Source of the DNA: Anolis carolinensis
Lineage: Eukaryota
Reading direction: 5' to 3'
DNA: 64,000 nt
NCBI RefSeq assembly: GCF_035594765.1
Contig: NC_085846.1
Location: 42,457,190-42,521,189 of the forward strand
Below are positions 37,828 to 64,000 of this stretch, piece after piece. The notes under the pieces were generated by a model. That model had not been told where the DNA came from and did not search any database. It saw only the letters and a program-made list of their open reading frames with translations. The position numbers and the translations under genes were made by a program. How positions within the stretch are numbered: position 1 is the first letter of the stretch; each line of letters starts with the position of its first letter.

Positions 37828-37855
37828 CACAGTGATACACTTCAGTACAAAAACC
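37828..37855 (+). other. 12-RSS
   Basis: cacagtg atacacttcagt acaaaaacc. Confidence 0.95.
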
Positions 37856-38563: not shown

Positions 38564-39134
38564 TCAGATTAATATTTGTAAACGGCAAGGCTGGGGCACT
38601 ATCCTGGGAGGAGGGCAAGGTGATAAAGTTTTTGCTGGAGGAGGCCGTGAACCTGCTCGAGGCAGGTGAATAATTTTTTCTGGGCTACACTGCTCTTCCT
38701 TTGGAAGTAGCTTAGGCAGGAAAGACTGCTGCCTTGTGACTTCTGCCTCCTCAACATTTGCCAGCTGGCGCACAAACCCAGGCCGGACATCCTTATTGAT
38801 GGAGTGGTGCTCTTCTTTGTGCTCTTCTTTGGAGAGCTTCCCGAGGCCGTGGGGCTGCCTTGGTAGGAGAGGGGGCTCCTTCCGTTTCTGTCTCTGGATC
38901 TTCTTTTCCTCCTGCTGCTGTTTCATCTTTGCCCTCAGAATTTCGGCTTGGGCAGCTTTCTGTGGCTCCAGTTCCCACAAGGGCTGCCTCTGCCTGCTCA
39001 GGCGCTGCTGCTGCTGTTGAATAGGTGGCACCGGCCAAGTAATGGGGGGCTTCCTCGGAGTCAAGGGCCCTTAAATAAATGACCCTGATCCGAGGAAACA
39101 GCCGGCCAATATTGAGCATGTCAAATGCCTCTAT
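38564..39134 (-). pseudogene. Unrecognised ORF family, copy A (one-base frameshift in a C run)
   Basis: ORFs 38793-39188 and 38564-39064 join if one G of 39044-39049 is removed; homologous to 54784-55320 and 61771-62332. Confidence 0.55.
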
Positions 39135-41879
39135 GGCGGTTCCAGGAAAAGCAAACCTAAAAACAAAAATAAAACAAAAAACAATCAAACAATAAATAAT
39201 TTTTTAAAAAGTCTAAACAAAATAGAAAAGAATACAAACCAATAAATAAAAGTAATAAAATAAAATAAATGTAAACAACATTTCAGAAACAAAGCGAAAT
39301 AATGAATATTCAAAACTCTAACAAATACTAGAAATAAATTTACTTCCAAACACCAACTTAATAATAGGAATAAGAATAAATAACAAACACTTCCAAGAAA
39401 TGAAACAGCTTCCTTTTAAGACAGAATGCTGCATGCACAACAATATTTTCCATGTGTGTGCCGTTTCTTTTGGGGAGGTGCTTCTGCCTCTTCACTTTGT
39501 GCTTCCTTGCCCCAACTTTGTGCTTCTAAAGTTGTTAAAGTTGTTAAAAACAATCAAACAATAAATAATTTTTTAAAAAGTCTAAACAAAATAGAAAAGA
39601 ATACAAACCAATAAATAAAAGTAATAAACTAAAATAAATCTAAACAATATTTCAGAAATAAAGCTAAATAATATACCCTCCAGCTTCTGCCACTTTTTCC
39701 TCAGGCAACAGTCAATCACTGATTCAACTTCGGCAATGATGTTTATTACTGGGATTGTGCTGGAGGTAACAGCAAAATTTTCTCCTAAAATAAAATAAAT
39801 GTAAACAATATTTCAGAAACAAAGCGCAATAATGAATATTCAAAACTCTAACAAAAGCAAACCAATCAACAAAAACTGGGCCCAAATACCAGGAAGCACA
39901 AGAGGAATCAAGGACAGAGGCAGAGGGCAGGGCGGGCAGGGCAGCGATCAGCAGGGCAGGAGGGCAGGAGGAGGCAAGAGGAAGCACTGAAAAGACTGAG
40001 AGGCAGCAACAGTCCAGTCACCTGGGGAGACATTGTGACATCAGAGGGAGGGAGGGGAGGGGGAGACATTGTGACATCAGGGGGAGGGAGGGGAGGAGGA
40101 GACATTGTGATGATGACGAATACACAAGCCCCCGCACTTACATTGCTCTGACATACAGCTGATTCCTGCCAGGAGTTCCACAGGCTCACAGGAACCCTGG
40201 ATTTCCCTTTTCAGAAGAACCTCAGTCACATAGATGCATTGTTTCCTCCCTTACAGGAGCAGAAAACCTCAGGCACTCTCTCTCCATTGAAGCTTCATTG
40301 ACCCTTGTTACATATTAACCCAGAGCAATAAATTATATCTGACCTGCTTTCACTTCCACTGCCTGCAAAAAGCAGCCCTTTGCAGGCAGCTTTAAAAAAC
40401 CAAAAACTGTCATAAAAACCCCTTCCAAGCCGCAGATCTCAGCCGGCTTGTCCGAAGCAGTCCAGGACCGCCTCGGGAGCAGGGAAACATAGTTCTTTCA
40501 ATCGCAGATATGGAAACTGCTCGGCCCCCGTATCCATGACTTAACTAATTCACTCCAGACCAATTTCATTCTACTCCGGAACCTTTTCTAAACTCGGCTG
40601 TCATCTTGTTTTCTGCTAGCTGCAAAAAGGAAAAAAGGAAAAGTATGGTATATATTGTACTTTAAAGTAAGTTATAGTTCTATATTTCCTCAAGTGATAT
40701 AATCACATATATTATGACTGTAATATCAATTTATATATTCCAACTGTACAGATAAGTACATATTTCAATGTCCAATTTTAACAAATATAATCTTGATAGT
40801 GTTCTCAAGGTTTGTAGTACTCTTCTTCAAATTCGATCATTCAAAGTAAATCAAAGTTCCATGTCAATAGTAACTCATTTAAAGTAAATCAAAGTTCCAT
40901 GTCAATAGCAACAAAGTTCCATGTCAGTAGTAACGACTGGTCTCCCGGGTATGCATCCAGTTTCGGTGACCTTCTTCAGGTAGACCTTCTTCAGGTAATC
41001 CTGGAGTTCCCTCTGTTTGCTGCTCTGCTGTCTTATTTCTTTTCATAGAATTAGAATCTTGTTTTCTGCTGCAGGAGAACCCGACTCACCTCCCCGCACA
41101 TGAATTGGTCCTTTTTATGAATGAGTGTGCCTTCTTATGAATGAGCATAGGCAAGGCGATCTAAACATATCTTTTCTATGTCTTTTAATGAATGTTTAAG
41201 TATCAGGGACCCCTCCCCCCACTCCTGCATGAACCCCATCCATTCCTTGCACCGACTCCTAGTCTTAGAGTGACCCCAACTAGCCCTCTTGCCTGCCTGG
41301 GCTAATGGAGAAATTCTGGGATTCCTTCTTTTTCCCTTATGGAAACGCAAAAGGAGATTGAAGCCCTTTTGATGCCCATAGGACTGACTGTGTTTGTATC
41401 CCCAGCCCAAGGGATGCTGGATCTTGTCCCAGGTTTAAGTTGCATTTTCCTCCAAAAATCTGGTCAAAAATCTGAGCGAGGGAAGGTGTCCCTGCATAGC
41501 AACATTAACTATTGTGCTGCCATGGGTCATCCCAACCCCTTCCCCCTCTGGAGACAGGGTATATATGAGGTGAGAAGGGCGGGACATAAATGTCAAAAAT
41601 AAATAAATAAATAAATAAATAACTTTCTGGAAATGTCTGTAATTTTCAAAGCAGTTAATTTTTAACCAATGAAAACCCACTGTGATAGAAATTTATCCAC
41701 ACTGCAAACATTTGTGGACCTTGGATGCCTGATCTGAAGTTCATCGTAATACTTAGAGTAGATTCTCTGCCTCTCAGAAAAGGAAGCTATTACCAACTGA
41801 CTTTGTGTCAGAATTCAAGGGGTTGGTGATGATATTAAGGCTCTCAACAGCATGAGCACCTCACTCCATATATATCGGC

Positions 41880-42380
41880 CTGAAAAGTGACCCCCACCTC
41901 TTGCCTCCATGTTGCTCTACAGGAGGCAATATGAAGTGTCCGAACGCATCTCCCTCTATGAACCACCGCGGAGATTAAGATCTTCCAGGGAGGCCTGCCA
42001 CCATCACAGGCGCGATTAGCGGGGACGAGAGACAGGGCCTTCTCAATGATTGCCTCTCGGCTATGGAACTCCCTCCCTGGCGAGATTAGATCAGCCCCCT
42101 CCCTCCTGTCCTTTAGAAAGATGGTAAAGACCTGGCTGTGGGATCAAGCCTTTGGGGCAATGCAAGAACAACAGCAATAGGAAATTTCACTCTGCTGACC
42201 AGATACAGTGCGGCTGAATTGCGATGGTTTTAAATAACGGTTTTAATGCGAAGATAACCGATTTTAGTGTTTATGTATATTTATGGTTTATTTTATGCAC
42301 CGGCATTGAATGTTTGCCGTATTTATGTTGCCCCTTCGGGGTGAGAAGGATGGAATATAAATGTTTTAAATAAATAAATA
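41880..42380 (+). mobile_element. L2 LINE 3' fragment (further pieces at 44565-44900 minus and 48945-49260 plus)
   Basis: Homology to 3375-3700 and L2-type tail. Confidence 0.7.
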
Positions 42381-42615
42381 TCAGAGGAATATGAAATCCC
42401 TTCCCTTGGAGGCCCAACATTGGGCTCTTTCCAATCCATAACATGGCTATCGATTTAAACCCAGGTCGGACCGGACTTTTCCTCTGTGTGGAACCGGCCC
42501 TAGATACAGCTGAATAAAACCCCACATTTCTGCTTTGTACTGGAATTATGGCAGTGTGGACTCAGAAAACCCAGTTCAAAGCAGATATTGTAATATTTTC
42601 TGCTTTGATAGTCTG

Positions 42616-43316
42616 AGGCCGCTTCCAGACAGCACTTTATCTCATGCCAAAAGAGGGTTTAAAAAACCTGCTTTGGCGCAGTTTAAAGTCCACACACCAC
42701 TAAAAAACCAAGCCTTTCCCAGTTAGGTGGATACATACCATCCCTGTAACTACCGGGATTATATTCAGCCACACACACCCAACACCCCCCCCCCCCCCCA
42801 AAGCCCTAAAAATGGTTAAGAACTTACCGGGCCACCATTAGGCCTTGCAGTACATTTCCTGGAATATACCAAGAAGCCGGGGGGTGGGGGGCGCAATTTG
42901 GCCTCCCCTTGCTTCCTCAGCATAATTGGCACACTCCAGGAAGTGTGCTGCTAGGCCTAATGGTGACCTGGTAAGTTCTTAATCATTTTAGGACTTTGGG
43001 GGGGGGGGGGCTTTTTGGTAAGAGGGTGGGAGCCATCTTGCATCTCTGGCCTCCAGAAGGTGCGAGATGGGTGTCTGGACAGGCCCCAGGATAGACCCAT
43101 GACTTCTCGTGGGCCTGTCTACACAGGGGCCGTAGCCCATCAGAACTGGGCCTTTCAGGAAGGTGCAGATCTAATGGGCTATCTAATTAATTTGGGATAA
43201 AGCAGGGTTTTCCTGCTTTGTGTCGAATTAATCCTCTTTTCCTGGAGGTTCCGTTTGGACTCCTCTAATAACGGTGCAAGAGGACCTGGGATATAGGCCC
43301 TGTCTGGATGGGCCCT
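42616..43316. mobile_element. Harbinger-like non-autonomous element with internal inverted repeat (42780-43015)
   Basis: aggccgcttccagacag / ctgtctggatgggccct ends; internal arms aagaacttacc.gg.caccattaggcc / ggcctaatggtgacctggtaagttctt. Confidence 0.6.
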
Positions 43317-43343
43317 GAGTTATATGGAATGCAATGCAATGTA

Positions 43344-43802
43344 CAGTAGAGTCACACTTATCCAACATAAATGGGCTGGCAGAACATTGAATAAGTGAAA
43401 ACATTGGATAATAAGGAGGGATTAAGGAAAAGCCCATTAAATGTCAAATTATGTTATGATTTTTACAAATTGTGCCCCAAAACACATCGACAGAAAAAGC
43501 AGTTCAATACACGGTAACGTTATGTAGTAATTACTATGCAGTATTTACGAATTTAGCACCAAAACATTGCAATATATTGAAAACATTGACTACAAAAACA
43601 TTGACTACTAAAAAAATTGACTACAAATAAAGATGGAATTGCATTAAATGAACTTGCAGTAACAACATTGTTGGAAGTTAAATCTGTACAAAGTTCAGTC
43701 CTTGCTGCTAGAGAAACAGCTGTGGATACGGGCCGGAGGCAGACTGTGTTGGATAATCCAGAACGTTGTATTAGCGAAGGTTGGTTAAGTGAGACTCTAC
43801 TG
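43344..43802. mobile_element. Tc1/mariner MITE, same family, longer variant
   Basis: TIRs and TA TSD. Confidence 0.85.
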
Positions 43803-45044
43803 TACATAATGACAGAGTGAAATGGGAAATGCTGTTTGCCCTTCTGTATTACACCTTACAACAACAATTATAAATGCTAATAATTTACTAAAACAAAAAC
43901 TCTTATTCGGAAGAGGCTTTTTTGTCTTTCCTTTTTTATATTTTTTTTACTCTTTTTCCTTGTGAACAATAATATTTGTATTGCATTTCTACAGTGTATA
44001 TAATATCCAAAAGCTATAGCCCAGTCACACCTTGTGGGTTGAATTGCATGTGCTCTCTCATTGGTTCAAATATGACAATGGCTATTTTGTGATTTCTAAT
44101 GGAATTCCTTCTGAGTAAAATAGGAGAAACTGGAGTGATTGTCTACAATGACCAGAAATCATGAATCAGGTCAGAAGTCACTCCTGTGCATCCACATGAC
44201 ACCCAGGGGCTTCTGGCCCTTAACATAGGATAAACCCATATTTGCCCTATGTTAGCAGAGGTCAGTGAATTTTTCCAGTGTTTTGCCAGAACTAAGAGTA
44301 GTCTATTCTAAAAAGAATGCCATTAAAAGATTTAAATATATATTATTTACAGGTGTGTGCCCCCACAGAAAAAACAACAACTGTATTAGATAAATAAATT
44401 GATAGAGAGATAAATGCTATTAGAATGTGTATTAGGTAGATTGTGTGATCCTCTTATTATGACATGGTATGTTAAGACCAGGGCTGAACTTTTTGTATTT
44501 TAGGCTGCAAACAAAAGAAGAAGAAAGAAAATCCCTTCACTAATGAGAATACTCTATCACTCTTCAGAGGCAGTCCCACGTAGAGCATGTTACAGTAAAC
44601 CAGACAGGATGTAACTAAGGATGTACCACTGTGGCCAGATCTGGCTTCTCAAGGAATGGGTGCAGTTGGCACAACAGTTTTAATTGTGCAAGGGCCCTCC
44701 TGGCCACCACAGATTTCTGGGCCTCCAAGTTCAGCGCTGAGTCCAGGAGGATCCCCAGACGGTGGACTTGTGTCTTCAGAGAGAGTGTAACCCCATCCAG
44801 CACAGGCTGAATCAATCTTCCGACTGATCAGGAGTACCTCTGTCTTTTCTGGGTTAAGTTTCCATTTTTTGCCTTCATCCTTTCCATTACTGATGGCATA
44901 CCATTACTGATGTGCAAAAAGCACAGATGTCTATTACATGCAATATACACAACAGGTATGGTATCTAATAGTAAGTCACAATGCTTATATTACACCAACC
45001 TTTATAAAACCCAATATAAAAGTAAACAAACAAATCTCAAAAAA

Positions 45045-45450
45045 TCGTATTGGATTTAAACTGGATTTGAACTTAAACAGTCTCTAATAGTAGTATCAAG
45101 TCCATCTATAGTGGGACAAGTTCCGTCGTAAGTTCTGGAACTGGATGGTCGATTACAAAGGTAAACAATCAAATCTCTAAACTCATATAGGATCTAAACC
45201 GGATTTAAACTTAAACATAAATAGTCTCTAATAATAGTATCCAGTCCTATGGCTGTCTTTTATAATGTCCCAAATTTGATTCAGTCTATATCGGAATAAG
45301 TTCCGTCGTAGGTTCTGGAGACTGGGTGGTCGATTACTCTCTAAACTCATATAGGATTTAAACTGGATTTAAACATAAACATAGTCTCTAATAGTAGTCT
45401 CTAGTCCTATGGACGTCTTTTATAATGTCCCAAATTCGATTCAGTCTATA
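45045..45450. repeat. Imperfect tandem repeat of about 140-165 bp, three copies
   Basis: Recurrent ggatttaaactggattt.aac...agtctctaatagtagt and aagttccgtcgta.gttctgg modules. Confidence 0.75.
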
Positions 45451-45941
45451 GCTATTCCATTATTTCATGCAGATTCAGCACAGAGAGAAGACCGAGCCAG
45501 TTTAAGATTCTACACAAGCTTTATACATCCCTGACATGCCCCTGGTGGCACCTTTATTTCTCCCTCTATGTGCTGGATTAGCACATCTCCACCCTGCTCT
45601 TTCTGATGTAAGCCACATTCATAACAATGCTCAATTAGACAACTTTAAATTCCTGGTGTCACTTCAGATGCTGAAGAACAGCACTAAGAATTCCAGCTAC
45701 ATATGCAGAGTAAAATAGAGTGGCCAAAACAAACAAACAAACAAATAAATAATATTGGCACATCGGGTAAGTGAAATATGCAGTCTTAGCCTCTCTTATC
45801 TCTACATACACATGAATACATATCTCTGGGATTTTATGTCAATATTTGTTTGTTTATGGAGGCATTGAATGTTTGCCATTGTATGCTGGAATCTTCCTTG
45901 AGTCCCCTTGGGGAAATAGGGCAGAATATAAAGTTATTATG

Positions 45942-45943
<2 letters not shown>

Positions 45944-45994
<51 letters not shown>
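45944..45994. repeat. (AAT)n microsatellite
   Basis: Seen directly. Confidence 0.95.
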
Positions 45995-45995
<1 letters not shown>

Positions 45996-46556
45996 TTATT
46001 TATTTCCAAAGCCTGACAGATACTAATCCCAACAATCATACATCCAGAACACATGTTAAACATCCCCACATAACTGACAGCAAATGGAATAATATATTTA
46101 TACAAATACCTAACCAAACAAAAAAGGGGGGGGGGGGGGATGAAGCATGGAGAGAACAGCTGGGTCCTCCAAGTAAGCCCCTTAATAACTATGTTGTTTT
46201 TTTGCAGAAATACACATACATAGGATTGCTTTCTATTCTGGTAGATCTCATTTTCCATGTAATACCTAGCATGTCATTTATAGTTGTCCTTCAAAACACT
46301 CAAAATGTCATTCCTTGAGAAACTGGAGCTGGAAATGTCTTGATAAAATATTTTCTTTATAAATATATTAACTTCCCATATCAATGAATAGCTCTGATCT
46401 TGTGGTGACAAATTGTTCTCCTTGATTGAGATTGTTCGGTTGAGATCCCTCCGGAGAGTTCATCAGTTTGTAACTCTCACCCAGGTGTTTCTGAGACTTT
46501 TCAGGAAGCATAAGACTCCTATGGGGAGAGACAATGATTTTTTCTATTCCCTGAAG

Positions 46557-46574
46557 ATTTGCATAGATTTCCAT
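46557..46574 (+). promoter_or_regulatory. Ig V promoter octamer module
   Basis: ATTTGCATagATTTCCAT; E-box CAGGTG about 75 nt upstream. Confidence 0.88.
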
Positions 46575-46684
46575 TTTTGACTCTTCATAAATCATCGCTG
46601 TGATTCTCTCCATGGTAAAGATAGAAACCATTTTAACACTTTCTGGGGAAAAGGAGAAATTGTTGAATTGACAGCATTAACATC

Positions 46685-47125
46685 ATGTTACAAATACATT
46701 TGATTTGGCTTGTCTTGAATATCTTTAAAGGTAGGTTTATGGGAATGCTGTTCCATCTCAGATTCCAAGTAAATATTAACAACTGACTGACATGCTTAAT
46801 TTCTCTCCTTCTAGAATCAAGTGGGGAAAATGTGATCACTTAGACCCCGGCCTCTTTACAGAAAAATCCTGGGGACAGAGTCGAAATTCAGTGCAAGACT
46901 TCCTCTTCAGTAACCAGTTCATACACTAACTTCATAAACTTCTATCAGATTCTACCAGGACAAAAACCCAAGCTACTGATTTATTATGCTACCAGGCGTT
47001 TTGAAGGGACCCCAGATCGCTTCAGTGGAAGAGGAAGTGGCACTGACTTCACCTTCACTATCGATGGTGTGCGTCCCGAGGACGAAGGGGAGTATTACTG
47101 TGGCCAAGTAAATAACAGTCCTCTA
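46685..47125 (+). pseudogene. Ig kappa-type V pseudogene: leader 46685-46730, V exon 46815-47125, in-frame TAG at 46841
   Basis: MLQIHLIWLVLNIFK|ESSGENVIT*TPASLQKNPGDRVEIQCKTSSSVTSSYTNFINFYQ...YYCGQVNNSPL. Confidence 0.9.
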
Positions 47126-47153
47126 CACAGTGATACACTTCAGTACAAAAACC
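47126..47153 (+). other. 12-RSS
   Basis: cacagtg atacacttcagt acaaaaacc. Confidence 0.95.
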
Positions 47154-50100: not shown

Positions 50101-50310
50101 TCCTTTTATGTTCTCCTCTTGGAAGCTGCTGGGTCAGCTGGATGGAATGAGGGTGTGGCTGCAGGTCTCCTTATGGGTAAGCCCAGGGCTGAGCAAGGCA
50201 GCAAAGCTGGATGGCAAATACTCAGGCCCCAGGGTCTCTTCTTCAGCAGGGCCCAATATTTATGAATGTTTCAATGTAATTTAATTTAAACGGATTGAAA
50301 TGTGATTGTA

Positions 50311-50722
50311 CCCTGTTTCCCCGAAAATAAGACATCCCCGAAAAATAAGACGTAGTAGAAGTTTTGCTGAATTACTAAATATAAGGCCTCCCCCAAAAGT
50401 AAGACCTAGCAAAGGTTTTGTTTGGAAGCATGCCCGCCAAACAGAACACCAGAGCATGCAGGGTTGGTAAATGTACATACCAGCTGTACATGGAAATAAT
50501 GGTAGTAACAAGAAATTCTTGATAGGATTCAGAGTTTGTCTGGTTATGTTGGTTTGTAATGACAACTACTGTACAGTATATAATAAATGTTCATTTTTTG
50601 TTAAACAATAAATGTGAATTCTTCTTCATGGAAAAATAAGACATCCCCTGAAAATAAGACCTAGAGCATCTTTGGGAGCAAAAATTAATATAAGACACTG
50701 TCTTATTTTCGGGGAAACACGG
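50311..50722. mobile_element. Tc2/pogo-like MITE
   Basis: TIR ccctgtttccccgaaaataagac / gtcttattttcggggaaacacgg, TA TSD. Confidence 0.85.
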
Positions 50723-50739
50723 TAATTAGTTTATATATG

Positions 50740-51535: not shown

Positions 51536-51962
51536 ATGTTACAATTATCTCTGATATGTCTCCTCTTGAATATCTTTAAAGGTATGATTATTGGAATGTT
51601 GTTTCTCATTCAGCTCCTAGGCAACAATTAACATTTGATTTACATTTTTATATTTTATCCTTTCAGAATCAAGTGGGCAAATTGTCACTCAGACCCCAGC
51701 TTTTTTGCAGAAAAATCCTGGGGACAGAGTGGATATTCAGTGCAAGGCTTCCTCTTCTGTCAACACTTACATGAACTTCTATCAATTGATACCGGGGCAA
51801 AAATCTAAGCTATTGATTCATGGAACTACCAACCGTTTTGAAGGAACCCCATATCGCTTCAGTGGAAGAGGAAGCGGCACTGACTTCACTTTCACGATCA
51901 ATGGTGTGCGTCCTGAGGACGAAGGGGAGTATTACTGTGGCCAAGCAAAGAGCTTACCTCTA
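51536..51962 (+). CDS. Ig kappa-type light-chain V gene segment, open reading frame (leader 51536-51581, V exon 51667-51962)
   Basis: MLQLSLICLLLNIFK|[99 protein letters not shown]; both Cys present, splice sites intact. Confidence 0.88.
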
Positions 51963-51990
51963 CACAATGATACACTTCAGTACAAAAACC
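51963..51990 (+). other. 12-RSS with variant heptamer CACAATG
   Basis: cacaatg atacacttcagt acaaaaacc. Confidence 0.9.
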
Positions 51991-53397
51991 TAGTTAGTGA
52001 TGGAAGACTGCAGAAATAGCTTGAATTGTGCTGTTCAAGATTTCTTTGAATGTACCTAAAGAGAGGATGAATTGTGTGAGAGAAAGCGTGCCATCGATGA
52101 ATACTTTGACGCTAGCGTTTCCCTAGGATATCTTCCAAACGCACTTAAGAAATGCTAATAATGAACTAAAGTGAGAAATAGTAACTTTACTTGGTCATAA
52201 AAGTTTTGTTGTCTTTTTTAAAAGTTTATTTTACTTTTCATTTAAATAATATTTCATTTAATGTCCACAATACATACAATATTACAGTATAGTAACAAAT
52301 CATAATCCAAGATCTTGCTTTATCACATCCACCCTCCCTGCAGTCTCCAAGTCATTGGAGTGTGCAAACTGCTTCCCTGTCAATTGGCTTACTAATAAAT
52401 TGTCCTTTATTGTCTAAATGTATTAATAATAGCTCTTTTCCCCTAGACATTCATCCAAAATCTTATTTGATCTAAAGGTGGTTTAAATCTGCTGTTCATA
52501 TGGCACGTAGCGTGATAAATGGTTCTCATATAGCCACAAAGACATCATCTTTTATTTCTCGTCTCTCTAATCTGATGTTGCGTGTTAATTTCCCAAATAG
52601 TTCCATACTCTGTGTAACTAATTCTGTACAAATAAATTTGCTAATTATTTCCATACCTTTACTATCTCCATCCTTGCAGTTCATACCAGAGGTTCAGAGA
52701 TCAAATAAAAGAGTCGCTGGTTTGGTCCAAAAAGTTCCAGGTTGGTTCGTTGATCACGCATGGCACTGTATGCAAGCAAATGGAAGACAGAGCAAAGAAA
52801 TTGTTAGAAGGTTAGAAGAGTGCCAACAAGAAGAGGAAAAGAACAATCATAGGTAGGCAGGTGATGGATTTCCTGAACATGACACTTGCTAGCAGGACTA
52901 CTAACACAATCAACATTGGGATCCAAATGCAATATGCACAACAAGTGGTAACAATTCCAGAAATAAATTTATTAAAGAAAGAGATACGATGACAAAAACA
53001 GTGAAATAAGAAACAAGCAAGTTCTCCTCAATCCATTGCTGGGAACCCCATGAACGGCAACGGGGATGACACCAGCCTGGCCAGTATGCAGCATAATCCC
53101 ACTCTCAGCCTGCATTGAGGTTCAGCATTAGGCTGAGATGTAAAGATATTTCTATCTTACTCAAGCCAAGAGGCTAATGGATCACATCTGTTTTACACCA
53201 GCCTTCTCATGCCATCCCAATTTGTTTTTAACAATGAAAGTAGGCATAAGAAAGAAAAAAAGAACAACAATTTTTCCCTTAACAGAGATTTTCTTCCTTT
53301 TTAAGGGGCAATTGGGTATAGAAAAATGGGACAACTGTGCACCCTACTTAGCTTGCCTCCTCGAGATAAGCGAATGTTGGATAAGTGAGACTCTACT

Positions 53398-54520
53398 GTA
53401 CTTCCAGTGGGACAATGAATTCTTTGAACAGAAAGATGGAGTAGCCACACGGAGCCCTCTTAGCCCTGTCATAGCAATTTTTTAAATTTAATTTTTATTA
53501 AAGTTTTGCAGTGTTACAAAAGGATACTCTAAGGGAAGGAAGTGAGGGGCGGGAAGGAATAATGATATTTCAAAAGGGGGGGGAGGAGGGGATAAAATAA
53601 AAATAAGAAGGAAAGAAGGAGGGAGGGGAGAGAAGGAAAGAGGTAAAAGGAGTCTATTGCTAGACTCCCGGGAAAGGAGGCCCTATGGGGAAAGGAAGAG
53701 GGGGGATTAGGTTGACTTCCGATCTTCCAACTTCCATCCACAATTGAAGTCGTTTCTTCATTTCACCGTTTCTTGAAGGTAGTCTTCTAAAATTGACCAG
53801 TTCGTTTCTCTCATTGGTCTTCCAGTAGTTTTTTTAATCAAAAAAGTCAGTCTGTCCATATTTTTAATGTCCATAAGCTTTTCCAACCACAGTTCTTTAG
53901 TGCGATTTTCCCCACCTTTCCAATTTCTCGCTAGTACTATTCTTGCTGCTGTAACAGCATAAGTAAATATTCTCTCTTTATTGTCTTTTTCTTTCTCTGT
54001 AATTATTTCTCCCTCTTCTTTGAAATTATATAGTCCTAATAAATAGTATTCTGGCTTACAATCAAATTCTAATTTAAAATTTTTCTTACATTCCATATGA
54101 ATTATCCTCCAATACTTTTTAATTACTTTACAGTTCCACCACATATGGAAATATGAGCCAACCTGATTTTTACAATGCCAACATATATTGTCTCTATCCT
54201 TATACATGAATCCTAATTTTTTTGGTGTCAAATACCACCTATGTATTGTTTTTAGCCAATTTTCTTTTAAATCCATTGAGTAGCACAGTTTAGTCTTTTT
54301 ATTCCATATATTATTCCATTCATCCATAGTTATCGGCCTACCCACATTTCTGGACCATTTTATCATTGAATCTTTAATGATTTCCGTTAGCCCTGTCATA
54401 GCAAATTTTACATGGAACACTTTGAGAAACAAGACCTGGAAACAGCACCAGAAAAGCCCATATATGGTTCTGATATGTGGATGACACCTTCACCATTTGG
54501 AGCCATGCAGAAGAAAAACT
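53398..54520 (+). mobile_element. Penelope-like RT fragment split by the L1 insertion
   Basis: YFQWDNEFFEQKDGVA..SPLSPVIA / NFYMEHFEKQ.LETAP...YVDDTFTIWSH. Confidence 0.8.
53478..54386 (-). mobile_element. 5'-truncated L1-clade LINE (ORF2 C-terminus with CCHC knuckle plus 3' UTR)
   Basis: ORF 53758-54432 contains CWHC..YFHMWWNC; 18-bp TSD ttagccctgtcatagcaa (53460-53477 and 54387-54404). Confidence 0.85.
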
Positions 54521-54783
54521 AAACAAAACATATATATTTATTGTTTATATTTGTTATTTATTTTTCTTATTTTTAAGTAAATTTATTTGTTAGACATTTT
54601 AACATTCATTATTTTGTTTTGTTTCTTAAATATAGTATACATTTATTTATTTACTTACTTTCATGTATTTGTATCCTTTTGTTCTTTTGTTCATTTTGGT
54701 TGTACTATTTGGTTTATATTATTTACTGTTTGGTAGTTTTTTCAGTTTTTCCTTTCCTTTTTGGGGGGGGGGGGATATTTGGC

Positions 54784-55464
54784 ATGGAGAATACTGGCCT
54801 GTTGCTACCCCAGATTTGGGTCATTTATTTAAGGGGCCTTGATTCGGAAGAAGCTCTCATTACCTGGCCAGTGGAAACCAATTGGCACCGGCAGCAGCGT
54901 CCAAGGAGGAAGAGGCACCCCTTTCGGGAACAGGCTCCACATAGAGCCACACAAGATGAAATCCTTCTGGCAAAGATTCAACAGCAGGAGCCCCCCATCC
55001 TACCAAGGCAGCGCCATGGCCTCTTGCCCTCCATCGTTGAGAAAATGGAAAAGAGGATGCTCTCCAAGGAAGAGCACAACGAGAAAAGCCAAAACTCACC
55101 ACCCCCACGGCCCCACTCCATCAATAAGAAGGATCTCCGTCCTGGGTTTTACCACCGGCTGGCTGAGGTGGGAGAGGCAGGAGGCAACAATCCTTCCTGC
55201 CCAAGCTGCCTCGGGACATCAGGATACACACTGACTGGCCAAGGTGGGAAAGGCAGAAGTAATGAGGCAACAATCTTTCCTGCACATGTGGCCTCAAGGT
55301 GCCTCCGATTCCAGAGCCTTGGAGGCCACCAAAGATTATACCCCTATATATTTCATTTATTTTGTTTGCACTATTTGCTTTATATTGTTTATGATTTGTT
55401 TGGTTTTTTTGTTTTTTGCTTTTGTTTTTTTCTGGGATTGCCACGGAAGCATTTGGCAAGCTGA
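54784..55464 (+). CDS. Unrecognised ORF family, copy B (open 226 aa from MENTG; homology fades after about 55320)
   Basis: IYLRGLDSEEALITWPV...EILLAK...PPILPRQRHGL...HSINKKDLRPGF motifs shared with copies A and C. Confidence 0.4.
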   Translation: MENTGLLLPQIWVIYLRGLDSEEALITWPVETNWHRQQRPRRKRHPFREQAPHRATQDEILLAKIQQQEPPILPRQRHGLLPSIVEKMEKRMLSKEEHNEKSQNSPPPRPHSINKKDLRPGFYHRLAEVGEAGGNNPSCPSCLGTSGYTLTGQGGKGRSNEATIFPAHVASRCLRFQSLGGHQRLYPYIFHLFCLHYLLYIVYDLFGFFVFCFCFFLGLPRKHLAS

Positions 55465-55575
55465 ATACTTGCCTGCTCCTACCTGATATTTGGGTCATTT
55501 ATTTAAGGGGCCTTGAATCGAAAGAAGCCCCGATCACCTTGCTAGGGGCACCGAATCAGCATTAGTAGCGGTGGA
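55443..55575 (+). pseudogene. Unrecognised ORF family, truncated tandem copy B2
   Basis: TEAFGKLNTCLLLPDIWVIYLRGLESKEAPITLL. Confidence 0.5.
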
Positions 55576-55683
55576 AAAAAAAACATTATTTTGTTTGCAC
55601 TATTTGCTCTATATCATTTATTGTTTGGTTGTTTTTGTTTTGGTTTGGGTTTTATTTTTGTTTTGAGGGTTTTTTTGTGGAAA

Positions 55684-56998
55684 TGTGATCGAGGTGACCA
55701 CCCTCCCCCCCAGGACTTTGTAAAAGATAGTTCAAAAGTCAAGACTTTATGTTCTATATTCCATATATTTATAGTAGAAGGTGATTGAGACTTTTTACTG
55801 GAGTTTACTGTGGATTATCCCTGCACTCTGAGGCAAGAGATAACAACTTCATGAATTGTAAAATCATGCTGCTAAAACTCCACTTTTATGAATTTCCATA
55901 TTGGGTTCCCCAGATGTTGTGAACTTCGTTCTTATCAAATGTTTTCAATTGTTTATATCATTCATGATTCCCCTTTATGCAATGTAACCCACCTTTATGG
56001 ATTCTCCCATATTTCCATGAAATCTATCTGTCTGCCTATATGTATTTGTACTCTTTGGGATCCCCGGAAAATATGTATTTTTCCCAGCAGGGTTTATATT
56101 TCAACTTTATTTTATTTTTCATTTTATTTCATATAATTGTCAAGTCATGGAATCAAATAGGGAATATTTTGAACTCAACCTGAACCCCAGAACTTATCTC
56201 ATTTCCTATAACCCAGGCTTCCCTTCCCAAAAACAAAAGGATAATCTGCCACAGCTTAACCCAATCTAATTCAGATTGCATGGACAATATAAGGCTTGAG
56301 TCCTAAAGGTGATTCGCCCCCAAGGCAAACATTGTCATATCTCATCCTAAGGAAATTCCAGGACACCTCAGGAAGGCGCCCTGTGGAGCCTGTCAATTTT
56401 GGCTCATCAACACCCATCACCACTTCCCCCCCCCTGACACCCCAAGGCATATCTAAAATCTGTATACGTGACAGGAACCCTTGATTGCTGTCATTAATCC
56501 CTTTAGAAATCGGTCTAGCAGGAATTAATATGATCTTTCCTGCCCTGTCACTTCATTGTTTCAATAACTCCCGCCTTCTCCTCCCTGATTGGCTCGAGTG
56601 GGGACAAAAAGCAGCTCCCTATTGGGCCAACAGAGCAAGGCGGGAAACGGAAGCCCGCCTCGTTCAACCTCCTAGCCAACCAGCGATCAGATGGGCGGGG
56701 GAGTGGGGCGGGAAATTCAAAGGGCTGTCAGACTGAAACTTTGTATAAATATGGCTTTATTTTGATAATATGGTACCCTAGTAGACTGAATGATCACTAC
56801 TAGAGTCCTTTTCAGCTGAATCGCTCAATAAAGACTCCTTGGCGGAATTTTCCTTCAACTTTGGCGGACCTTCTTCATTTCAGCTTCAGGTTGTATGGCG
56901 GCTCATATTTTCCTATTGGCTCCGCCAAGATCCGTTCTCTCAGGACCAGATCGGGTCTCTCCTTAAGGGCCCGATCCCCTAAAGCGCGGTCAACAACA
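55684..56998 (+). repeat. 5' LTR (1315 bp): CCAAT/GC boxes, TATA 56744, AATAAA 56827
   Basis: Direct repeat of 60449-61762. Confidence 0.95.
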
Positions 56999-57003
56999 TA
57001 ATT

Positions 57004-57024
57004 TGGCTTTACCACGAAGGGACT
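57004..57024 (+). other. Primer binding site, tRNA-Arg(UCG)-like
   Basis: TGGCtttACCACGAAGGGACT vs the recalled complement of the tRNA-Arg(UCG) 3' end, TGGCGACCACGAAGGGACT. Confidence 0.75.
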
Positions 57025-60000
57025 TGCTTGGAAGTTCCAAAAATCAATTTTTAGGCTAAAATTCCAAGCGGCGACCTTGGTCCAGATATTCTGGAACAGG
57101 TTGGGGAGAGAAACGGCTGCAAGGAGGGCCCTCCGACCAACAATTTGACCTCATTTCACATCTAAATTTCTCTGGCAGTCCCTTTCTCTCTCTAGATCTG
57201 ATTCAGGGTACTGAACAAAGGAGCCAGATAGGAGGAAGCAGATTTTTAGCTCCTCGAAGGAAAAGGCGTCAACGTGAAACAGGGGACGCCCTGAAAAGGA
57301 ACCGGTTCCGTTGTTAAGACCCAGGTGGGCGGAGCTCTGGAGGTATTGCACTTCGGATCAGGGTTCGGTAACAAATTCCTGGTGAAACACGGGAACATCT
57401 GGCACCTGAAAGCATGTGAGAGCAGTCTAGCTTGCAGTTGCAGGTTCAAGGATCGTAGGGTAGGGGAACGGTTGTGCTCCCGGGTCACCTGCGGATTCCA
57501 CGAACGCTAGCCATTCAGCCTTAGTGGAGGGAACTCTTGAAAGGACGAGCTGCATCCTGACCGGTTGGGTGAGTCGTTACTCCATTAACTGTCGGTGTGG
57601 GCAGGGGCTGAGCTAAGGATGGGTGTTTGTTCAGCATGTCTAGGGTGTCCCACCCCAGCAGACATCCCCAGGGATTCTCCATTGGGTAAGATCCTGGCCA
57701 ATTGGGGTGGGCTTGCATCGAAAAACATGGTGCAGGCCAGGTTGGGCTAACTCAGCGCGCATAAGTGGCCCCTTGTGGCCCTTGAAGGGGGAACAGCTTG
57801 CCCCCCCCCCGCTTGAGTCGCCGAATTAAAGGTGACTCGCCATGGGGAGGGCAGGTGGTTCCAGCTTGCTTATGCCGCAATGTTCATGGCCCTAAGCCAG
57901 GGAGAGAATTGGAGGGGGGAGGGGGTCCACGTCTTCCCATGCAGAGATTTGGGCTCCAAAAACAACCCCCCCAAAGATTCCTCTCTAGACCCTTTCCCCT
58001 TACCCCCTCCTCCAGAGGATTTTCTGGACACATTTGCTTGCCTTCTCCCCCCACCCCATCAGCCCAGGCCCTCTGCCCCATCCCTATCCCTACTTTTTCT
58101 CCTCACCCTGAGTCCTACACTGATCTAGGACTCCCAAATTGGCCTTCCAAGGGAACCCTTACTTCAGGGATCCCCCCCCCCAAGAAATTCCCCTCCAGAG
58201 AGTTCAGCCCAGTCTAACGTGGAGGAGGACTCCCAGCCCCCTCCCCTCTCACCCCAAAACACACCTGATCCAAAACACTGTTCCTCTTCTCAAGTCACAC
58301 TCTCTCAGCCCCCATCCCAGCCGTTCCTTTGAAGCCTGATGCCCCCCCCCCCCAATATTGTATCTGCCCCTGCCACTCAACTCCTGCTACATTCTGAGTT
58401 TTCCTCAGATGGGAAGAATCACCCCACCATCCCCCCTCCTTCTCTTGCCCCCACCAGGCTCTCTCTCTCTCTCTCTGCGCTCATTCCTCTCTTGGAGAGA
58501 GAGGAGAAGGAGGGGCCGTGGGGAGATTGTGCAAAGAGGACACTTTTTTTCTCTTCCTGTTTTTGGAGGGGCAAAGGGGGGAGGGGGGCATTCCTTTAGC
58601 CGCTTCTGTTTCTTAATTTCCCCTTTTCTTTCTCTCCCATCTGGGAAGCATGGCAAAGGATTTGGGTGGGGGAGGGGGACTCCCAGAAAAGTGTTGGTTA
58701 AATTTTGTGTGTTTATGTAATGTGTGGCCTGTAAACTCTTCTCTACTCATCCCTTTGCCTTAAAAGCCACCAGTGATATATAGTTTTCTGGGAAGGAGGG
58801 CTGGAATGGACTAGCTTAGTGCTATGCTCTCTCTCTCCCTTTTCTTCTGTGCCATCTCACCTCCCTATTTTCAAAGGTTCAAGCCCTAATATTTTGTGAG
58901 ACCCCCCCCCCCCCCAGAGAAATCCTGCTGCTTCTGTGGTTTTAACTTTTTCTTGTCTCTCTCTCCTCAAACCTCCCTTATCTTAGAGAGAAAAGGGGGG
59001 GATGGAAGAATTGATGTATTTTTCTATATGTGAGTTTTTCCTCTCTCTCTCTCTCTTTCACTTCATGTTTTCCTAGGCCAAAATGCACTTCAACATTCTC
59101 CTTTTTCAAAGCTTTCTTCCCCCCCCTTCCTTCCCAGCATCCCCATTTCTCCTTATAAACATACAGTCAAAATCCTGGTTTACTTTTATAGTAAAGGCAC
59201 TCTTTCACTCTCCACAGTTCCCCAACAATCTCCTTTCTTCCTTTCGGGTCCTTCTCCCTCCCTTTCCCTGAGTGCATGCGTGTGAATGTTTTAAAAATCC
59301 CTCTAACTGCCTTTAAATATGAGGGGGGCAGTACAGAGTCCAGGGGACCTTCCAGGCACAGCTGAAGAGATCCAGAGGACCGGACCCAACCACCTGACTG
59401 AGGACATCAGACCAGACTGCAAGACCCATAATCCATACCTGCCACCATGAACAGTTCTAAGACCTGGGTAGGGGCTCTCGGAGTGCGCTGTGGATTTCAT
59501 GCAGCAGCTAGAACCCAGAGGCCATTGGAGATGGTCCTGTGAGGGTAAGCCCGGACCCCCAGTCACCCAGAAGAGACAGCCCCACCTGTGGCTGATCTGA
59601 GACCCCCACGGGGGAAGCAGCCCCATCTGCCTGGCTCAGGGGCTAGAGACTAAGACACTGCTGAAAGGATTCTTGCACATGGCAGGCTTTTATGGCCAGA
59701 CCACCGTATGGTGCCCTCCAGCTGGCCTGGTTCTGCCCTGGCAAGGGGCTACTGAGTGCAGGTCTGCCTTTGACGCTGCCAAGGAGGCCCTCATGACATC
59801 ACCAGGGGACAGAATTGGCCGCCATGGCAGAAGATGTCCCAGAAGAAGTGAACAGGATTCTACCAGTGACCACCATGAGGGAAGGATGTTCCACCCTCAC
59901 CAGAGCTGTGCCAAAGAAGGACCCCAGGACTGCTGGAGCCCTCACAAGGTATGAGTGACTTCCCTGACTAACCCCACCACGGGAGGGAGGGGGGGCTTAT

Positions 60001-60435
60001 AATCTGTCCTTAGTTTCCCTAGGCACTCTCTCCTTTCCGTCTCCTCTGTTGGAGTGCTGGACCTGCCTGCAGTCACCAGGAGGCTCCGTGCTGTGAGGCG
60101 CAGAAGCTGTGCCCAGTTGCCCCCAGCTGCCAACTACAAAGGGGGGCCCAAGCTGCAGCCAAGAAAAGGCAGCCAAATGGGAGTACTGCATCACAGCCTC
60201 CATCATCCCCAGCCCTCACCACCTCCACCTTCACGCTCCATTTCCCATGACTCCAGACCAAGGGACATCTGCTTCAACACCATGGGATCACCCACCACTG
60301 ACTGAACCTCAGCTTTCACCTCTTCAAGCTCCTGCCCTCCAACAAAAAGGCACAATCTGATCTACCAAGGCAGAGGCCCTGCATGCAGTGAAATGTCGGG
60401 GCTTTGGGAAATGTTCATAGCCATTTCCAAGCCCC

Positions 60436-60448
60436 GAAGGGGGGAAAA
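60436..60448 (+). other. Polypurine tract
   Basis: GAAGGGGGGAAAA directly before the 3' LTR. Confidence 0.85.
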
Positions 60449-61762
60449 TGTGATCGAGGTGACCACCCTCCCCCCCAGGACTTTGTAAAAGATAGTTCAA
60501 AAGTCAAGACTTTATGTTCTATATTCCATATATTTATAGTAGAAGGTGATTGAGACTTTTTACTGGAGTTTACTGTGGATTATCCCTGCACTCTGAGGCA
60601 AGAGATAACAACTTCATGAATTGTAAAATCATGCTGCTAAAACTCCACTTTTATGAATTTCCATATTGGGTTCCCCAGATGTTGTGAACTTCGTTCTTAT
60701 CAAATGTTTTCAATTGTTTATATCATTCATGATTCCCCTTTATGCAATGTAACCCACCTTTATGGATTCTCCCATATTTCCATGAAATCTATCTGTCTGC
60801 CTATATGTATTTGTACTCTTTGGGATCCCCGGAAAATATGTATTTTTCCCAGCAGGGTTTATATTTCAACTTTATTTTATTTTTCATTTTATTTCATATA
60901 ATTGTCAAGTCAGGGAATCAAATAGGGAATATTTTGAACTCAACCTGAACCCCAGAACTTAACTCATTTCCTATAACCCAGGCTTCCCTTCCCAAAAACA
61001 AAAGGATAATCTGCCACAGCTTAACCCAATCTAATTCAGATTGCATGGACAATATAAGGCTTGAGTCCTAAAGGTGATTCGCCCCCAAGGCAAACATTGT
61101 CATATCTCATCCTAAGGAAATTCCAGGACACCTCAGGAAGGCGCCCTGTGGAGCCTGTCAATTTTGGCTCATCAACACCCATCACCACTTCCCCCCCCTG
61201 ACACCCCAAGGCATATCTAAAATCTGTATACGTGACAGGAACCCTTGATTGCTGTCATTAATCCCTTTAGAAATCGGTCTAGCAGGAATTAATATGATCT
61301 TTCCTGCCCTGTCACTTCATTGTTTCAATAACTCCCGCCTTCTCCTCCCTGATTGGCTCGAGTGGGGACAAAAAGCAGCTCCCTATTGGGCCAACAGAGC
61401 AAGGCGGGAAACGGAAGCCCGCCTCGTTCAACCTCCTAGCCAACCAGCGATCAGATGGGCGGGGGAGTGGGGCGGGAAATTCAAAGGGCTGTCAGACTGA
61501 AACTTTGTATAAATATGGCTTTATTTTGATAATATGGTACCCTAGTAGACTGAATGATCACTACTAGAGTCCTTTTCAGCTGAATCGCTCAATAAAGACT
61601 CCTTGGCGGAATTTTCCTTCAACTTTGGCGGACCTTCTTCATTTCGGCTTCAGGTTGTATGGCGGCTCATATTTTCCTATTGGCTCCGCCAAGGTCCGTT
61701 CTCTCAGGACCAGATCGGGTCTCTCCTTAAGGGCCCGATCCCCTAAAGCGCGGTCGACAACA
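60449..61762 (+). repeat. 3' LTR (1314 bp)
   Basis: Differs from the 5' LTR at about 5 substitutions and 1 homopolymer indel seen by eye. Confidence 0.95.
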
Positions 61763-61770
61763 GAAACGCG

Positions 61771-62332
61771 ATGGAGGCATTCAACATGCTTAGTACCGGC
61801 GAGCTGCTTCCAGAGATCAAGATCATTTATTTACGGCCCCCTGACTCCAAGGAAGCCCCCGTCACGTGGCCAGTGCCACCCGTCCAGCCTCAGCGGCCGA
61901 GCAGGCAGAGGCGCCCCTTGTAGAAAGTGGGAACACTGAAAGCCACCCAAGCGGAAATCCTGAGGGTGAAGGTGAAACAGCAGCAAGAGGAAAGGGAGAT
62001 CCAAAGACAGAAACGGCAAGAGCGCCCTGTCTTACCAAGGAAGCCCCATGGCCTTAGGAAGCTCTGCAAGGAAGAGCAGATAGAACACAATTCCATCAAT
62101 AAGGATCTCCGGCCTGAGTTTGAGTGCCGGCTGGCAAATGTTGGGAGAGGGTGAAGTCATGACACAGCAGTCCTTTCTCCCCAAGATGCCTTCGAGTGTG
62201 GAGCAGTGAAACCCATCGAAGATCATTCCACTGCCTCGAGCAGGTCCATGTCCTCCTCCTGCAAAAACGTTATCACCTTACCCTCCTCCCAGGCCAGTGC
62301 CCCGGCCTTGCCGTTTGCCAACCTTAATCTGA
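61771..62332 (+). pseudogene. Unrecognised ORF family, copy C (TAG at 61921, later frameshift)
   Basis: MEAFNMLSTGELLPEIKIIYLRPPDSKEAPVTWPV...PL*KVGTLKATQAEILR...PPPAKTLSPYPPPRPVPRPCRLPTLI*. Confidence 0.55.
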
Positions 62333-62721
62333 CCTAGATGTATTGCAGACTGTGATCAATCTGACTGTTAGGCAACTCTCAGGTAGCAAAGTATCAATTT
62401 TAGCTAAAAGAGGCGGTTTTGCTGTTTCCATCAGCATGATCACAGTAGAAAATATCACTGCCAATGTTGAATCAGTGATTGAGTGTCCTGCGATGAAGAA
62501 ATGGAGAAAGTAAGAGGTTAACAGCAAGCTCCTGAGAAAGCAAAACTTCCCTCCAGCAACGTAACAAGAAAAGAAAGAAAAGTCACCAAAGACCTCAGTT
62601 CAGATTCAGAAATCATCATTCTCCATGCCAAATGTCTATGGCATTTCCACAAAAAACCAAAACAAAAGCAAAAACCACCCCCCCCCCCAAAAAAAAACAG
62701 ACAATAAATATAAACCAAATA

Positions 62722-63039
62722 AAAGGTAAAGGTTTCCCCTGACATTAAGTCCAGTCATGTCTGACTCTGGAGGTTGGTGCTCATCTCCATGTCTAAGTCG
62801 AAGAGCCGGCGTTGTCCGTAGACACCTCCAAGGTCATGTGGCCAGCATGACTGCATGGAGCGCCATTATCTCCTCGCTGGAGCGGTGCCTATTGATCTAC
62901 TCACATTTGCATGTTTTCGAATTGCTAGGTTGGCAGGAGCTGGAGCTAACAACGGCCGCTCCCGCCACTCCCGGGTTTTGAACCTGGGACCTTTCGGTCT
63001 CCAGCTCAGTGCTTTACTGCATTTTGCCACCGGGGCTAC
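62722..63039 (-). mobile_element. Sauria SINE
   Basis: 13-bp TSD tataaaccaaata. Confidence 0.9.
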
Positions 63040-64000
63040 TATAAACCAAATAGTCAAACCAAAAGGAACAAAACAACAAAAGGAATTATTTCAGAAATAA
63101 TGAATATTCAAAACTCTAACATATGCTACAAATAAATTTACTTTAAAAAGACAAACTTAATAATAGGAATAAGAATAAACAACAAACACTACCAATAAAT
63201 ATATTTTTTAAAAACCAATACGTTCAATAACAAAAACAATTAACAAACAGTGTAAAATAGATACAAACAAGCCAAACAATTATAAAAACATATAACAAAT
63301 ACTACTACTACTAGTAAAAGTAAACCAATAAACAAGAATCAAAAACAAATACCAGGAAACGCAAGAGGAGGCAAATAGAGAGGCAAAGGACAGGCTGGGC
63401 AGCAATGAGGCAGAGGATGAGGGCAGAAGGAGGCAAGAGAAAGCACTGAGGAGGCTGAGAGGCAGCAACAGTCCAGTCGCCTGGGGAGACATTGTCACAT
63501 CAAGAGGGAGGCAGGGGAGGGGGGGAGGGGGGGATGGAGGGAAGGGGAGGCATTATGACATTGGAGGGGGGTCCTGGGGAGATAATGGTGGAAAAGGACA
63601 AGAATGGGGGGGGGGCATGCTGGGAGGCTTCTGAAGAGGGAGGCTGCCATCTTTGCCTTCCTCTGCATCTGAGAGTGGGATTTGCCCAGGGTCTTCCAAT
63701 GGTAGAATGTCACTTCCCAGACCTTTTTTAGTTTCCAAATTGATCGTTTACAACCAATTCAAGAAGCCCACAGCTGCATCCCAAGAAAAGATACAATTAA
63801 AGGTCCAAAATTCAAAATGTTCCATGTTGTTGGCTGAGAGAGTGGCACCTCTGCTTTCTCAGACTTCACAGACTATGTTTTTGGGGGTTTTCTTGGCCAG
63901 ATTTATTCTGAGGGCATTTGCATTTTCTTCCCTCTGGAGAGGAGAAAGTGTGACTTGTCCAAAGCCACCCCATGAGTTTCCATGTTTATAGCAATAATAA

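What the first reader, a model, noticed from the sequence alone, without database searches (positions are those of the whole stretch)
38564..63570. Unrecognised multicopy gene-like family interleaved with the V segments
Seen: at least four related copies in both orientations (38564-39134 minus; 54784-55320, 55443-55575 and 61771-62332 plus), plus a truncated start near 62600-62640 minus. They share one reading frame: MEAFxMLxxGxLLPxIxVIYLRxLDSxEAPITWPV...QAEILRxKxKQQQEE...PxLPRxPHGL..HSINKDxRPxF..LAxV, and copies A and C end PPPAKTLSPxPPPRxVPxPCRLxxLI*. Many differences are conservative. Copy A is one base in a homopolymer away from an intact 184-aa ORF, and copy B is open for 226 aa. I recognise no domain and no TE hallmark (TIR, TSD, RT or transposase). 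Inference: a lineage-specific, fast-evolving basic/disordered protein family undergoing birth and death alongside the Ig locus.
Basis: partly seen in the sequence, partly recalled or inferred. Interest (0 to 1): 0.7.

Follow-up and report, generated by a model that had tools for sequence, protein, structure and literature searches.

The report
Orphan lizard gene spreading antibody fragments
A lizard genome (likely green anole) holds about 30 full or partial copies of an unannotated small gene whose protein frame shows purifying selection and is transcribed; the copies likely spread out of the antibody kappa locus as DNA duplications, many carry a dead antibody segment, and the protein likely acts in sperm-forming cells.

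Summary
The family is real. The window is the distal end of an Ig kappa locus, likely Anolis. The repeat is an unannotated, likely single-exon gene for a ~190-aa basic, proline-rich, mostly disordered protein with no database relative. About 30 full or partial copies exist: ~20 sites over 12 Mb of contig C6 and 10 on five other contigs. Of 24 near-full copies, 4 are intact, none in this window. The frame is under purifying selection: omega 0.53 overall, 0.38 on internal branches, against 0.86 for the V pseudogene copied with it; shared indels keep frame 7 of 8 times, private ones 7 of 30. RNA contigs of one study cover intact-type copies and broken copy A, confirming its frameshift. Copies share 1-10 kb of flank with variable ends, and 15 carry one RSS-less V-kappa orphon joined at its coding end, so spread is likely DNA-level duplication out of the kappa locus, as in primate core duplicons. 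A male germ-line role is inferred, not shown.

The parts
38564..39134 (-). Copy A coding remnant: start codon changed to ATA, +1 frameshift at codon 29 (G run 39044-39049); transcribed pseudogene
38067..39152 (-). Stretch covered by single RNA contigs in two runs of one study; they stop 21 and 26 bases past AATAAA at 38098-38093 (likely 3' end; strand inferred from that signal)
39135..40110 (-). Copy A T-rich and CT-rich leader with two tandem TGATGTCACAAT elements (40032-40043, 40068-40079), one mismatch from the CRE consensus; likely promoter and 5' UTR
37534..37855 (+). V-kappa exon with 12-RSS (heptamer 37828), tail to tail with copy A
46802..47153 (+). V-kappa exon with 12-RSS (heptamer 47126)
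51657..51990 (+). V-kappa exon, heptamer variant CACAATG at 51963; undeleted counterpart of the orphon arrangement
52890..53369 (+). Segment whose homologue is fused to the V coding end in 15 dispersed orphons
53402..54551 (+). Two RT-like fragments (Penelope-type by recalled motifs; no Pfam hit) split by an L1-like insertion at about 53490-54390 on the minus strand
54584..55330 (+). Copy B: leader and diverged 5' two-thirds of the ORF (ATG at 54784 is not the family start; frame lost after about codon 133)
55355..55575 (+). Short leader plus first ~35 codons (B'), broken
55684..61762 (+). LTR element, 1.3-kb LTRs 99.5% identical, 4-base target duplication GAAA, inserted in copy C's leader 8 bases before the ATG; no pol-length ORF
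61771..62332 (+). Copy C: full length, stops at codons 51 and 147, +1 frameshift at codon 126
62335..62623 (+). RT-like fragment that follows the stop codon in the copies examined (likely 3' UTR)
62618..63795 (-). Copy D: upstream region, one-mismatch promoter element (63491-63502), leader and first ~7 codons (ATA start at 62639)

Best explanation
This is an unannotated, transcribed, likely single-exon host gene for a ~190-aa basic, proline-rich protein whose frame is under purifying selection, which likely arose at the distal end of the Ig kappa locus, likely spread by DNA-level duplication of 1-10 kb blocks that often carry a dead V-kappa segment, and likely acts in male germ cells. Shown: copy number and places, four intact ORFs, selection on the frame, RNA cover, shared flanks, the shared V junction. 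Inferred: a few source copies at a time keep the frame (today the young 41.55 and 42.69-42.71 Mb clade) while most daughters decay; a CRE-like element drives germ-line transcription (about 55% for testis); the protein works through two short constrained motifs (residues 1-35, 117-156) as a disordered adaptor or basic nuclear protein; germ-line transcription makes the block prone to be copied, as proposed for primate core duplicons.
For: Copies: 40 DNA and 54 protein matches, on C6 35-44 Mb and C1, C3, C4, C5; the 23-base promoter pattern occurs 19 times in 1.85 Gb, all at family loci, control 0. 4 of 24 near-full copies intact, 2 more open with a shifted C-terminus. Omega 0.53, lnL -4913.2 against -4949.0 at omega 1; internal 0.38, terminal 0.64, 2dlnL 9.6. 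Variants in 4 or more copies: 72 silent, 83 replacement, 83 at codon position 3 against 38 and 35; singletons 61 and 148, Fisher p 0.0009. Controls: V orphons 0.86 (not different from 1), ORF at 10 of the same loci 0.44; other frames 0.94, 1.72, 1.10, 0.69, 1.71. Indels in frame 7 of 8 shared, 7 of 30 private, p 0.002. X4 and X10 are RNA (spliced COX18 contig, zero depth in unique intron bins) and cover copy A; X4 also covers the intact copy L010 with pieces of 0-3 differences. Flanks collinear for 1-10 kb with different ends, upstream DNA kept, V leader and intron kept. 15 orphons share one V junction whose undeleted form is in this window. Window copies fall in the deepest clade of a midpoint-rooted tree. 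pI 10.5, 17.6% Pro; model has two helices only, pTM 0.21.
Against: Tissue of the RNA runs is unknown; both are one study; contigs give neither strand nor start; RNA also covers DNA upstream of the CRE-like element. No protein evidence. Low omega on internal and higher on terminal branches with most copies dead is also the signature of a mobile element. One of three arbitrary frames of the non-coding leader gave omega 0.57 (others 0.78, 0.94), so the test can misfire on low-complexity DNA. The 57-80 block returned omega 1.000 with identical likelihoods and may not have optimised. My branch model was capped at 60 iterations and ignores gene conversion. The root is midpoint only; no outgroup genome. 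Block ends are often hidden by later TE insertions. Two paper searches gave no listing tying TGATGTCA itself to spermatid promoters.
Confidence: 0.7

Rival explanations
1. The unit is a selfish, low-copy mobile element whose small protein is needed for its own copying; selection on internal branches reflects active source elements, not host benefit.
For: Internal omega 0.38, terminal 0.64, 18 of 24 copies broken early, 10 copies on other contigs. RT-like fragment directly behind the stop.
Against: No common ends; 1 weak 8-base candidate in 7 target-duplication searches, on approximate ends; no enzyme domain; only ~30 copies; terminal omega still below 1; two sister copies share a stop, so a dead parent was likely copied; tandem 9-kb and 600-base arrays point to unequal exchange.
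Confidence: 0.12
2. The ORF is an unrecognised TE-derived coding region (for example an upstream ORF of the adjoining RT-like element, or a gag/ORF1 remnant) later captured in duplications.
For: RT-like sequence starts at the stop codon in the same orientation in the copies examined; basic, proline-rich make-up is common in such ORFs (recalled).
Against: RT-like repeats are very abundant in the DNA runs while the ORF has flat low depth; the ORF was not found outside family loci with two protein queries; no match among 1.84 billion representatives.
Confidence: 0.1
3. The copies arose by retroposition of long read-through transcripts rather than DNA duplication; the antisense V intron would survive this.
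For: The gene appears intronless; RNA covers DNA upstream of the CRE-like element; LINE-like elements are abundant here.
Against: Sister copies share 1-2.4 kb upstream of the element and up to 8 kb downstream; left and right ends both vary; no poly-A at the ends printed.
Confidence: 0.06
4. A non-coding repeat with a chance reading frame.
For: No homologue, no domain, poor structure model.
Against: Frame-specific omega, third-position excess and in-frame shared indels.
Confidence: 0.02

Closest known systems
Primate core duplicon gene families (NPIP/Morpheus, TBC1D3, SPATA31, LRRC37; PMC6920530, PMC7419210)
   Same: A transcribed core shared by all duplication blocks, flanks that differ by subclade, copies both tandem and dispersed mainly along one chromosome, many dead copies; NPIP too has no mouse homologue.
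   Different: No sequence relation. Blocks are 1-10 kb, about a third of sites are on other chromosomes, copies are older (73-99% identical), selection is net purifying, the gene is likely single-exon, and the cargo is an Ig V segment.
Human IGKV orphons (25 outside the major locus, on chromosomes 1, 2, 15, 22; PMC7555362)
   Same: V-kappa segments with leader and intron copied to other chromosomes, unable to contribute to antibodies.
   Different: Here 15 orphons descend from one RSS-less junction and travel as passengers of a neighbouring non-Ig gene under selection.
Anolis carolinensis Ig kappa locus (chromosome 6, PMC4762898; V-kappa lacking Trp41, 10.1101/002618)
   Same: 12-RSS V segments, J and C downstream, NFYQ in place of the tryptophan motif, 93% identity to an A. 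carolinensis UniRef V protein.
   Different: The interleaved family is not mentioned in the passages read and is absent from the protein collection that holds the anole V proteins.
Germline-joined Ig light chain genes of sharks (PMC2193156, search listing only)
   Same: A V segment cut at its coding end in inherited DNA.
   Different: The partner here is not a J segment and shows no RSS; RAG action is only a possibility.

Membership tests
Core duplicon gene family | A core shared by all duplication blocks, with differing flanks | tested here: met
   Core covered by up to 9 of 9 other loci, flanks by subsets; a few sites keep only promoter or orphon
Core duplicon gene family | Duplicates generally confined to one chromosome, tandem and dispersed | tested here: inconclusive
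   About 20 sites on C6 (tandem and dispersed) but 10 on C1-C5
Core duplicon gene family | Transcribed, ORF maintained | tested here: met
Core duplicon gene family | Testis-derived or testis-high expression | not testable with these tools
   Tissue of runs not on record
Core duplicon gene family | Copy-number variation in the population | not tested
   Only contigs were available; depth is no copy number
Core duplicon gene family | [quoted passage not shown] | tested here: inconclusive
   Whole ORF 0.53; last 30 codons 1.51, 2dlnL 5.3, one of six blocks tested
Transposable element | Fixed termini (TIR, LTR, poly-A) and target-site duplication | tested here: not met
   Ends differ among copies; 1 weak candidate in 7 searches
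Transposable element | Transposase, RT, integrase or Rep/helicase in the ORF | tested here: not met
   No Pfam, PDB or protein match
Transposable element | Match to a curated repeat library | not testable with these tools
   No Dfam or Repbase held
Processed retrocopies | Loss of upstream DNA, poly-A tail, target duplication | tested here: not met
   1-2.4 kb upstream kept in sister copies; no tail at ends printed
Ig kappa V segments (neighbours) | 12-RSS, downstream J and C, kappa-type sequence | tested here: met
   14 12-RSS matches, J at C6:42597776, C near 42600978; named kappa hits in reptiles
RAG-made germline joint (orphon junction) | Break at the heptamer border on the V side | tested here: met
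   23 of 24 bases after the Cys codon kept, then foreign DNA
RAG-made germline joint (orphon junction) | RSS or cryptic heptamer at the partner end | tested here: not met
   Window 52870-52895 shows no GTG-ended heptamer at the junction, by eye

The most novel reading that the evidence does not exclude
A gene born de novo inside the anole Ig kappa locus behaves as a reptilian core duplicon: germ-line transcription keeps exporting the locus edge across the genome, and the founding export carries a V segment cut by RAG in the germ line, which would make this a dated record of germ-line V(D)J-type cleavage in an amniote and a second vertebrate system for testing what drives core duplicons.
Probability: 0.15. 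Interest if true: 0.85.

Novelty: new variant of a known kind. Interest (0 to 1): 0.55.

Why it matters
It is a real protein-coding family missing from a protein collection that does hold this lizard's neighbouring V proteins. Its copies come with a built-in neutral control, the V pseudogene duplicated with them. It offers a compact non-primate case for the open question of why some transcribed cores seed interspersed duplications, and it explains scattered V-kappa pseudogenes in this genome as passengers, which matters when counting reptile V genes.

Tried and rejected
Homology: no hit with the intact protein (254 candidates, none at E 0.01), with a 9-sequence alignment (5322 candidates, none at E 0.1; 0 among 1.84 billion representatives; 0 in PDB), in Pfam (0 of 3 and 0 of 2 family proteins) or by exact look-up (0 of 7); searches covered near lengths only. 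Positive control with a V exon gave 72 hits including anole proteins. The Atlas search gave no result. The structure model is too poor for a fold search (pTM 0.21), so none was run. No more distant paralogue in the genome with two single-protein queries; the only outside hit was E 0.31; a profile search of the genome stays open. Assembly error at the G run: rejected. An intron in the leader: a GTATTT donor-like site is conserved in 14 of 14 aligned loci but no acceptor is conserved and an RNA contig runs through it; 41 unaligned letters on one X10 contig are unexplained. An upstream signal-peptide-like ORF from the ATG inside the promoter element: frames differ among copies, rejected by eye. 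Read-through from COX18: near-zero depth in 34520-37774. Repeat-masked chaining over-masked the core and was replaced. The conservation ranking is partly circular, since loci were picked by an adjoining motif. Per-branch counts on reconstructed nodes were not obtained. Paper searches (listings only) showed nothing on this family; no supplements were opened, and supplements of anole genome or transcriptome papers may list these loci.
Full report
Setting. The window is G000:C6:42457190-42521189 of a 1.85-Gb genome. It holds ANKRD17-like and COX18-like exons (names recalled from the translations) and then V segments. Over the window and the next 220 kb there are about 16 V segments, 14 matches to a 12-base-spacer RSS, one J motif at C6:42597776 and a constant exon near 42600978. 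A window V is 93% identical to an Anolis carolinensis protein, and named hits in other reptiles are kappa. PMC4762898 (passages) places the anole kappa locus on chromosome 6; 10.1101/002618 (passages) reports loss of Trp41 in anole V-kappa, and these V frames read NFYQ there. So this is the distal end of Ig kappa, likely in the green anole.

Observation. Every window copy is broken: A has ATA for the start and a +1 shift at codon 29; C has two stops and a shift; B is homologous for about 130 codons; B' and D are fragments. D continues upstream as a promoter and leader to 63795.

The family. DNA and protein searches give about 30 sites: about 20 on C6 between 32.7 and 44.4 Mb and 10 on C1-C5, one of them promoter and orphon only (lower bounds). 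I aligned 26 units and analysed the 24 near-full ones, leaving out B and a half copy. Four are intact (C6 41.55, 42.694, 42.703, 42.714 Mb; 188-191 aa, 95-99% identical in DNA), two are open with a shifted C-terminus, 18 break earlier. The protein is 21.7 kDa, pI 10.5, 17.6% proline; the model shows helices at 56-79 and 120-136 and little else, pTM 0.21. No relative was found, although the collection holds anole and other lizard proteins.

Selection. One omega for the tree is 0.53, lnL -4913.2 against -4949.0 at omega 1. A two-class model gives 0.38 on internal and 0.64 on terminal branches, 2dlnL 9.6; fixing internal at 1 costs 26 units. Variants seen in four or more copies are 72 silent to 83 replacement with 83 at the third position; singletons are 61 to 148 with even positions and 6 stops. 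Shared indels keep frame 7 of 8 times, private ones 7 of 30, counted by hand (p 0.002). The 12 V orphons tested give 0.86, not different from 1, while the ORF at 10 of those loci gives 0.44; the five other frames give 0.94, 1.72, 1.10, 0.69, 1.71. Against: one leader frame gave 0.57. Constraint sits in residues 1-35 (0.29) and 117-156 (0.37); 81-116 gives 0.57, two blocks 1.0 (one perhaps unoptimised), the tail 1.51. Pairwise dS from A to an intact copy is 0.58, so the family is likely tens of millions of years old (inference, no calibration).

Expression. X4 and X10 are RNA: each has one contig joining COX18 exons and zero depth in unique intron bins. Each covers copy A with one contig (38072-39145, depth 34.7; 38067-39152, depth 8.8; no differences, no gaps), beside COX18 at 31 and 43; depths of contigs cannot rank genes. 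Both stop 21-26 bases past an AATAAA on the minus strand. X4 also covers intact copy L010 from leader to 1 kb past the stop, one ORF piece with 0 differences in 208 bases. Limits: one study, unknown tissue, no strand or start, and cover upstream of the presumed promoter too.

Promoter. TGATGTCACAAT lies 530-680 bases before the start in most loci, farther where insertions intervene, and is exact in 19 of the 30 first loci, tandem in five. With its 3' flank it occurs 19 times in the genome, always at family sites. It is one change from the CRE, TGACGTCA; PMC3091680 (passages) reports that most CREM sites in mouse spermatids carry a one-mismatch or half CRE. That, with the testis origin of core duplicon genes in PMC6920530 (passages and introduction), is the only basis for the germ-line inference.

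How it spreads. Dispersed copies are collinear for 1-10 kb around the ORF, broken by younger TEs, with ends that differ by subclade. They keep upstream DNA; of 7 target-duplication searches 1 gave a weak 8-base candidate. Most carry, 2-4 kb downstream and tail to tail, a V-kappa with leader and intron. In 15 of the loci fetched the V ends one base short of where the heptamer should start and is fused to DNA homologous to window 52890-53369; the window keeps the undeleted state, V with RSS and 900 more bases. Window copies group with the 43.66 and 44.19 Mb copies as the deepest clade of a midpoint-rooted tree, and the 43.66 Mb copy has an RSS-bearing V remnant. The simplest reading is origin at the kappa edge, one deletion at a V coding end, then serial DNA-level duplication within C6 and to other chromosomes, plus local tandem arrays. 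The enzyme route is unknown.

Comparison. It works like a primate core duplicon as defined in PMC6920530 and the abstract of PMC7419210: shared transcribed core, variable flanks, many dead copies. It is not a member of any of those families, the blocks are smaller, a third of sites are off the home chromosome, and testis expression and copy-number variation are untested. Its cargo matches human IGKV orphons (PMC7555362, passages). It fails the TE tests that could be run; the Penelope and L1 labels on nearby fragments are recalled from motifs and had no Pfam support. PMC11534156 (passages) and 10.1101/006866 (one reference line) added nothing further. The RAG reading of the junction meets the V-side test and fails the partner-side test; the shark precedent PMC2193156 was seen as a listing only.

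Verdict. A real, unannotated, selected and transcribed orphan gene family with core-duplicon-like spread out of the kappa locus; the window holds its old, broken copies. Confidence 0.7 in the whole model, higher for protein-coding status, about 0.55 for testis. Interest 0.55.

Noticed in passing
window 51963 and 52890-53369; L031:6914, L035:7035, L039:7693, L042:1337, L068:1951 and 9716, L070:571, L071, L072, L073, L075, L078, L079, L080, L082: Fifteen V-kappa orphons share one junction within a base of the heptamer border; RAG-like on the V side, no RSS on the partner side.
   Followed up: partly
window 55684-61762: Young LTR element (LTRs 99.5% identical, 4-base target duplication, no pol-length ORF) inserted 8 bases before copy C's ATG.
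   Followed up: partly
G000:C6 about 42576000-42597000 (L056-L058): A satellite array of about 20 kb, with an N gap, lies between the last V segment and the only J motif found; V-J joining would have to span it.
   Followed up: no
G000:C6:44388600-44391500 (L087): Tandem 600-base units made of leader plus a partial ORF of the family.
   Followed up: no
window 38067-40651: Broken copy A is still transcribed, antisense to and ending 210 bases from the RSS of a V segment; RNA also covers DNA upstream of its CRE-like elements.
   Followed up: partly
L077:7046-7371 and L074:5986-6297: Two orphon V segments of another type keep a decayed heptamer and share a nonamer deletion and a stop at the Cys codon; one lies beside the intact 41.55 Mb copy, one beside a promoter-only remnant.
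   Followed up: partly
window 35864: A perfect 12-RSS with no recognisable V exon before it.
   Followed up: no
window 21500-64000: The kappa V cluster directly follows COX18 and ANKRD17-like genes here, a neighbourhood not named in the synteny passages read.
   Followed up: no
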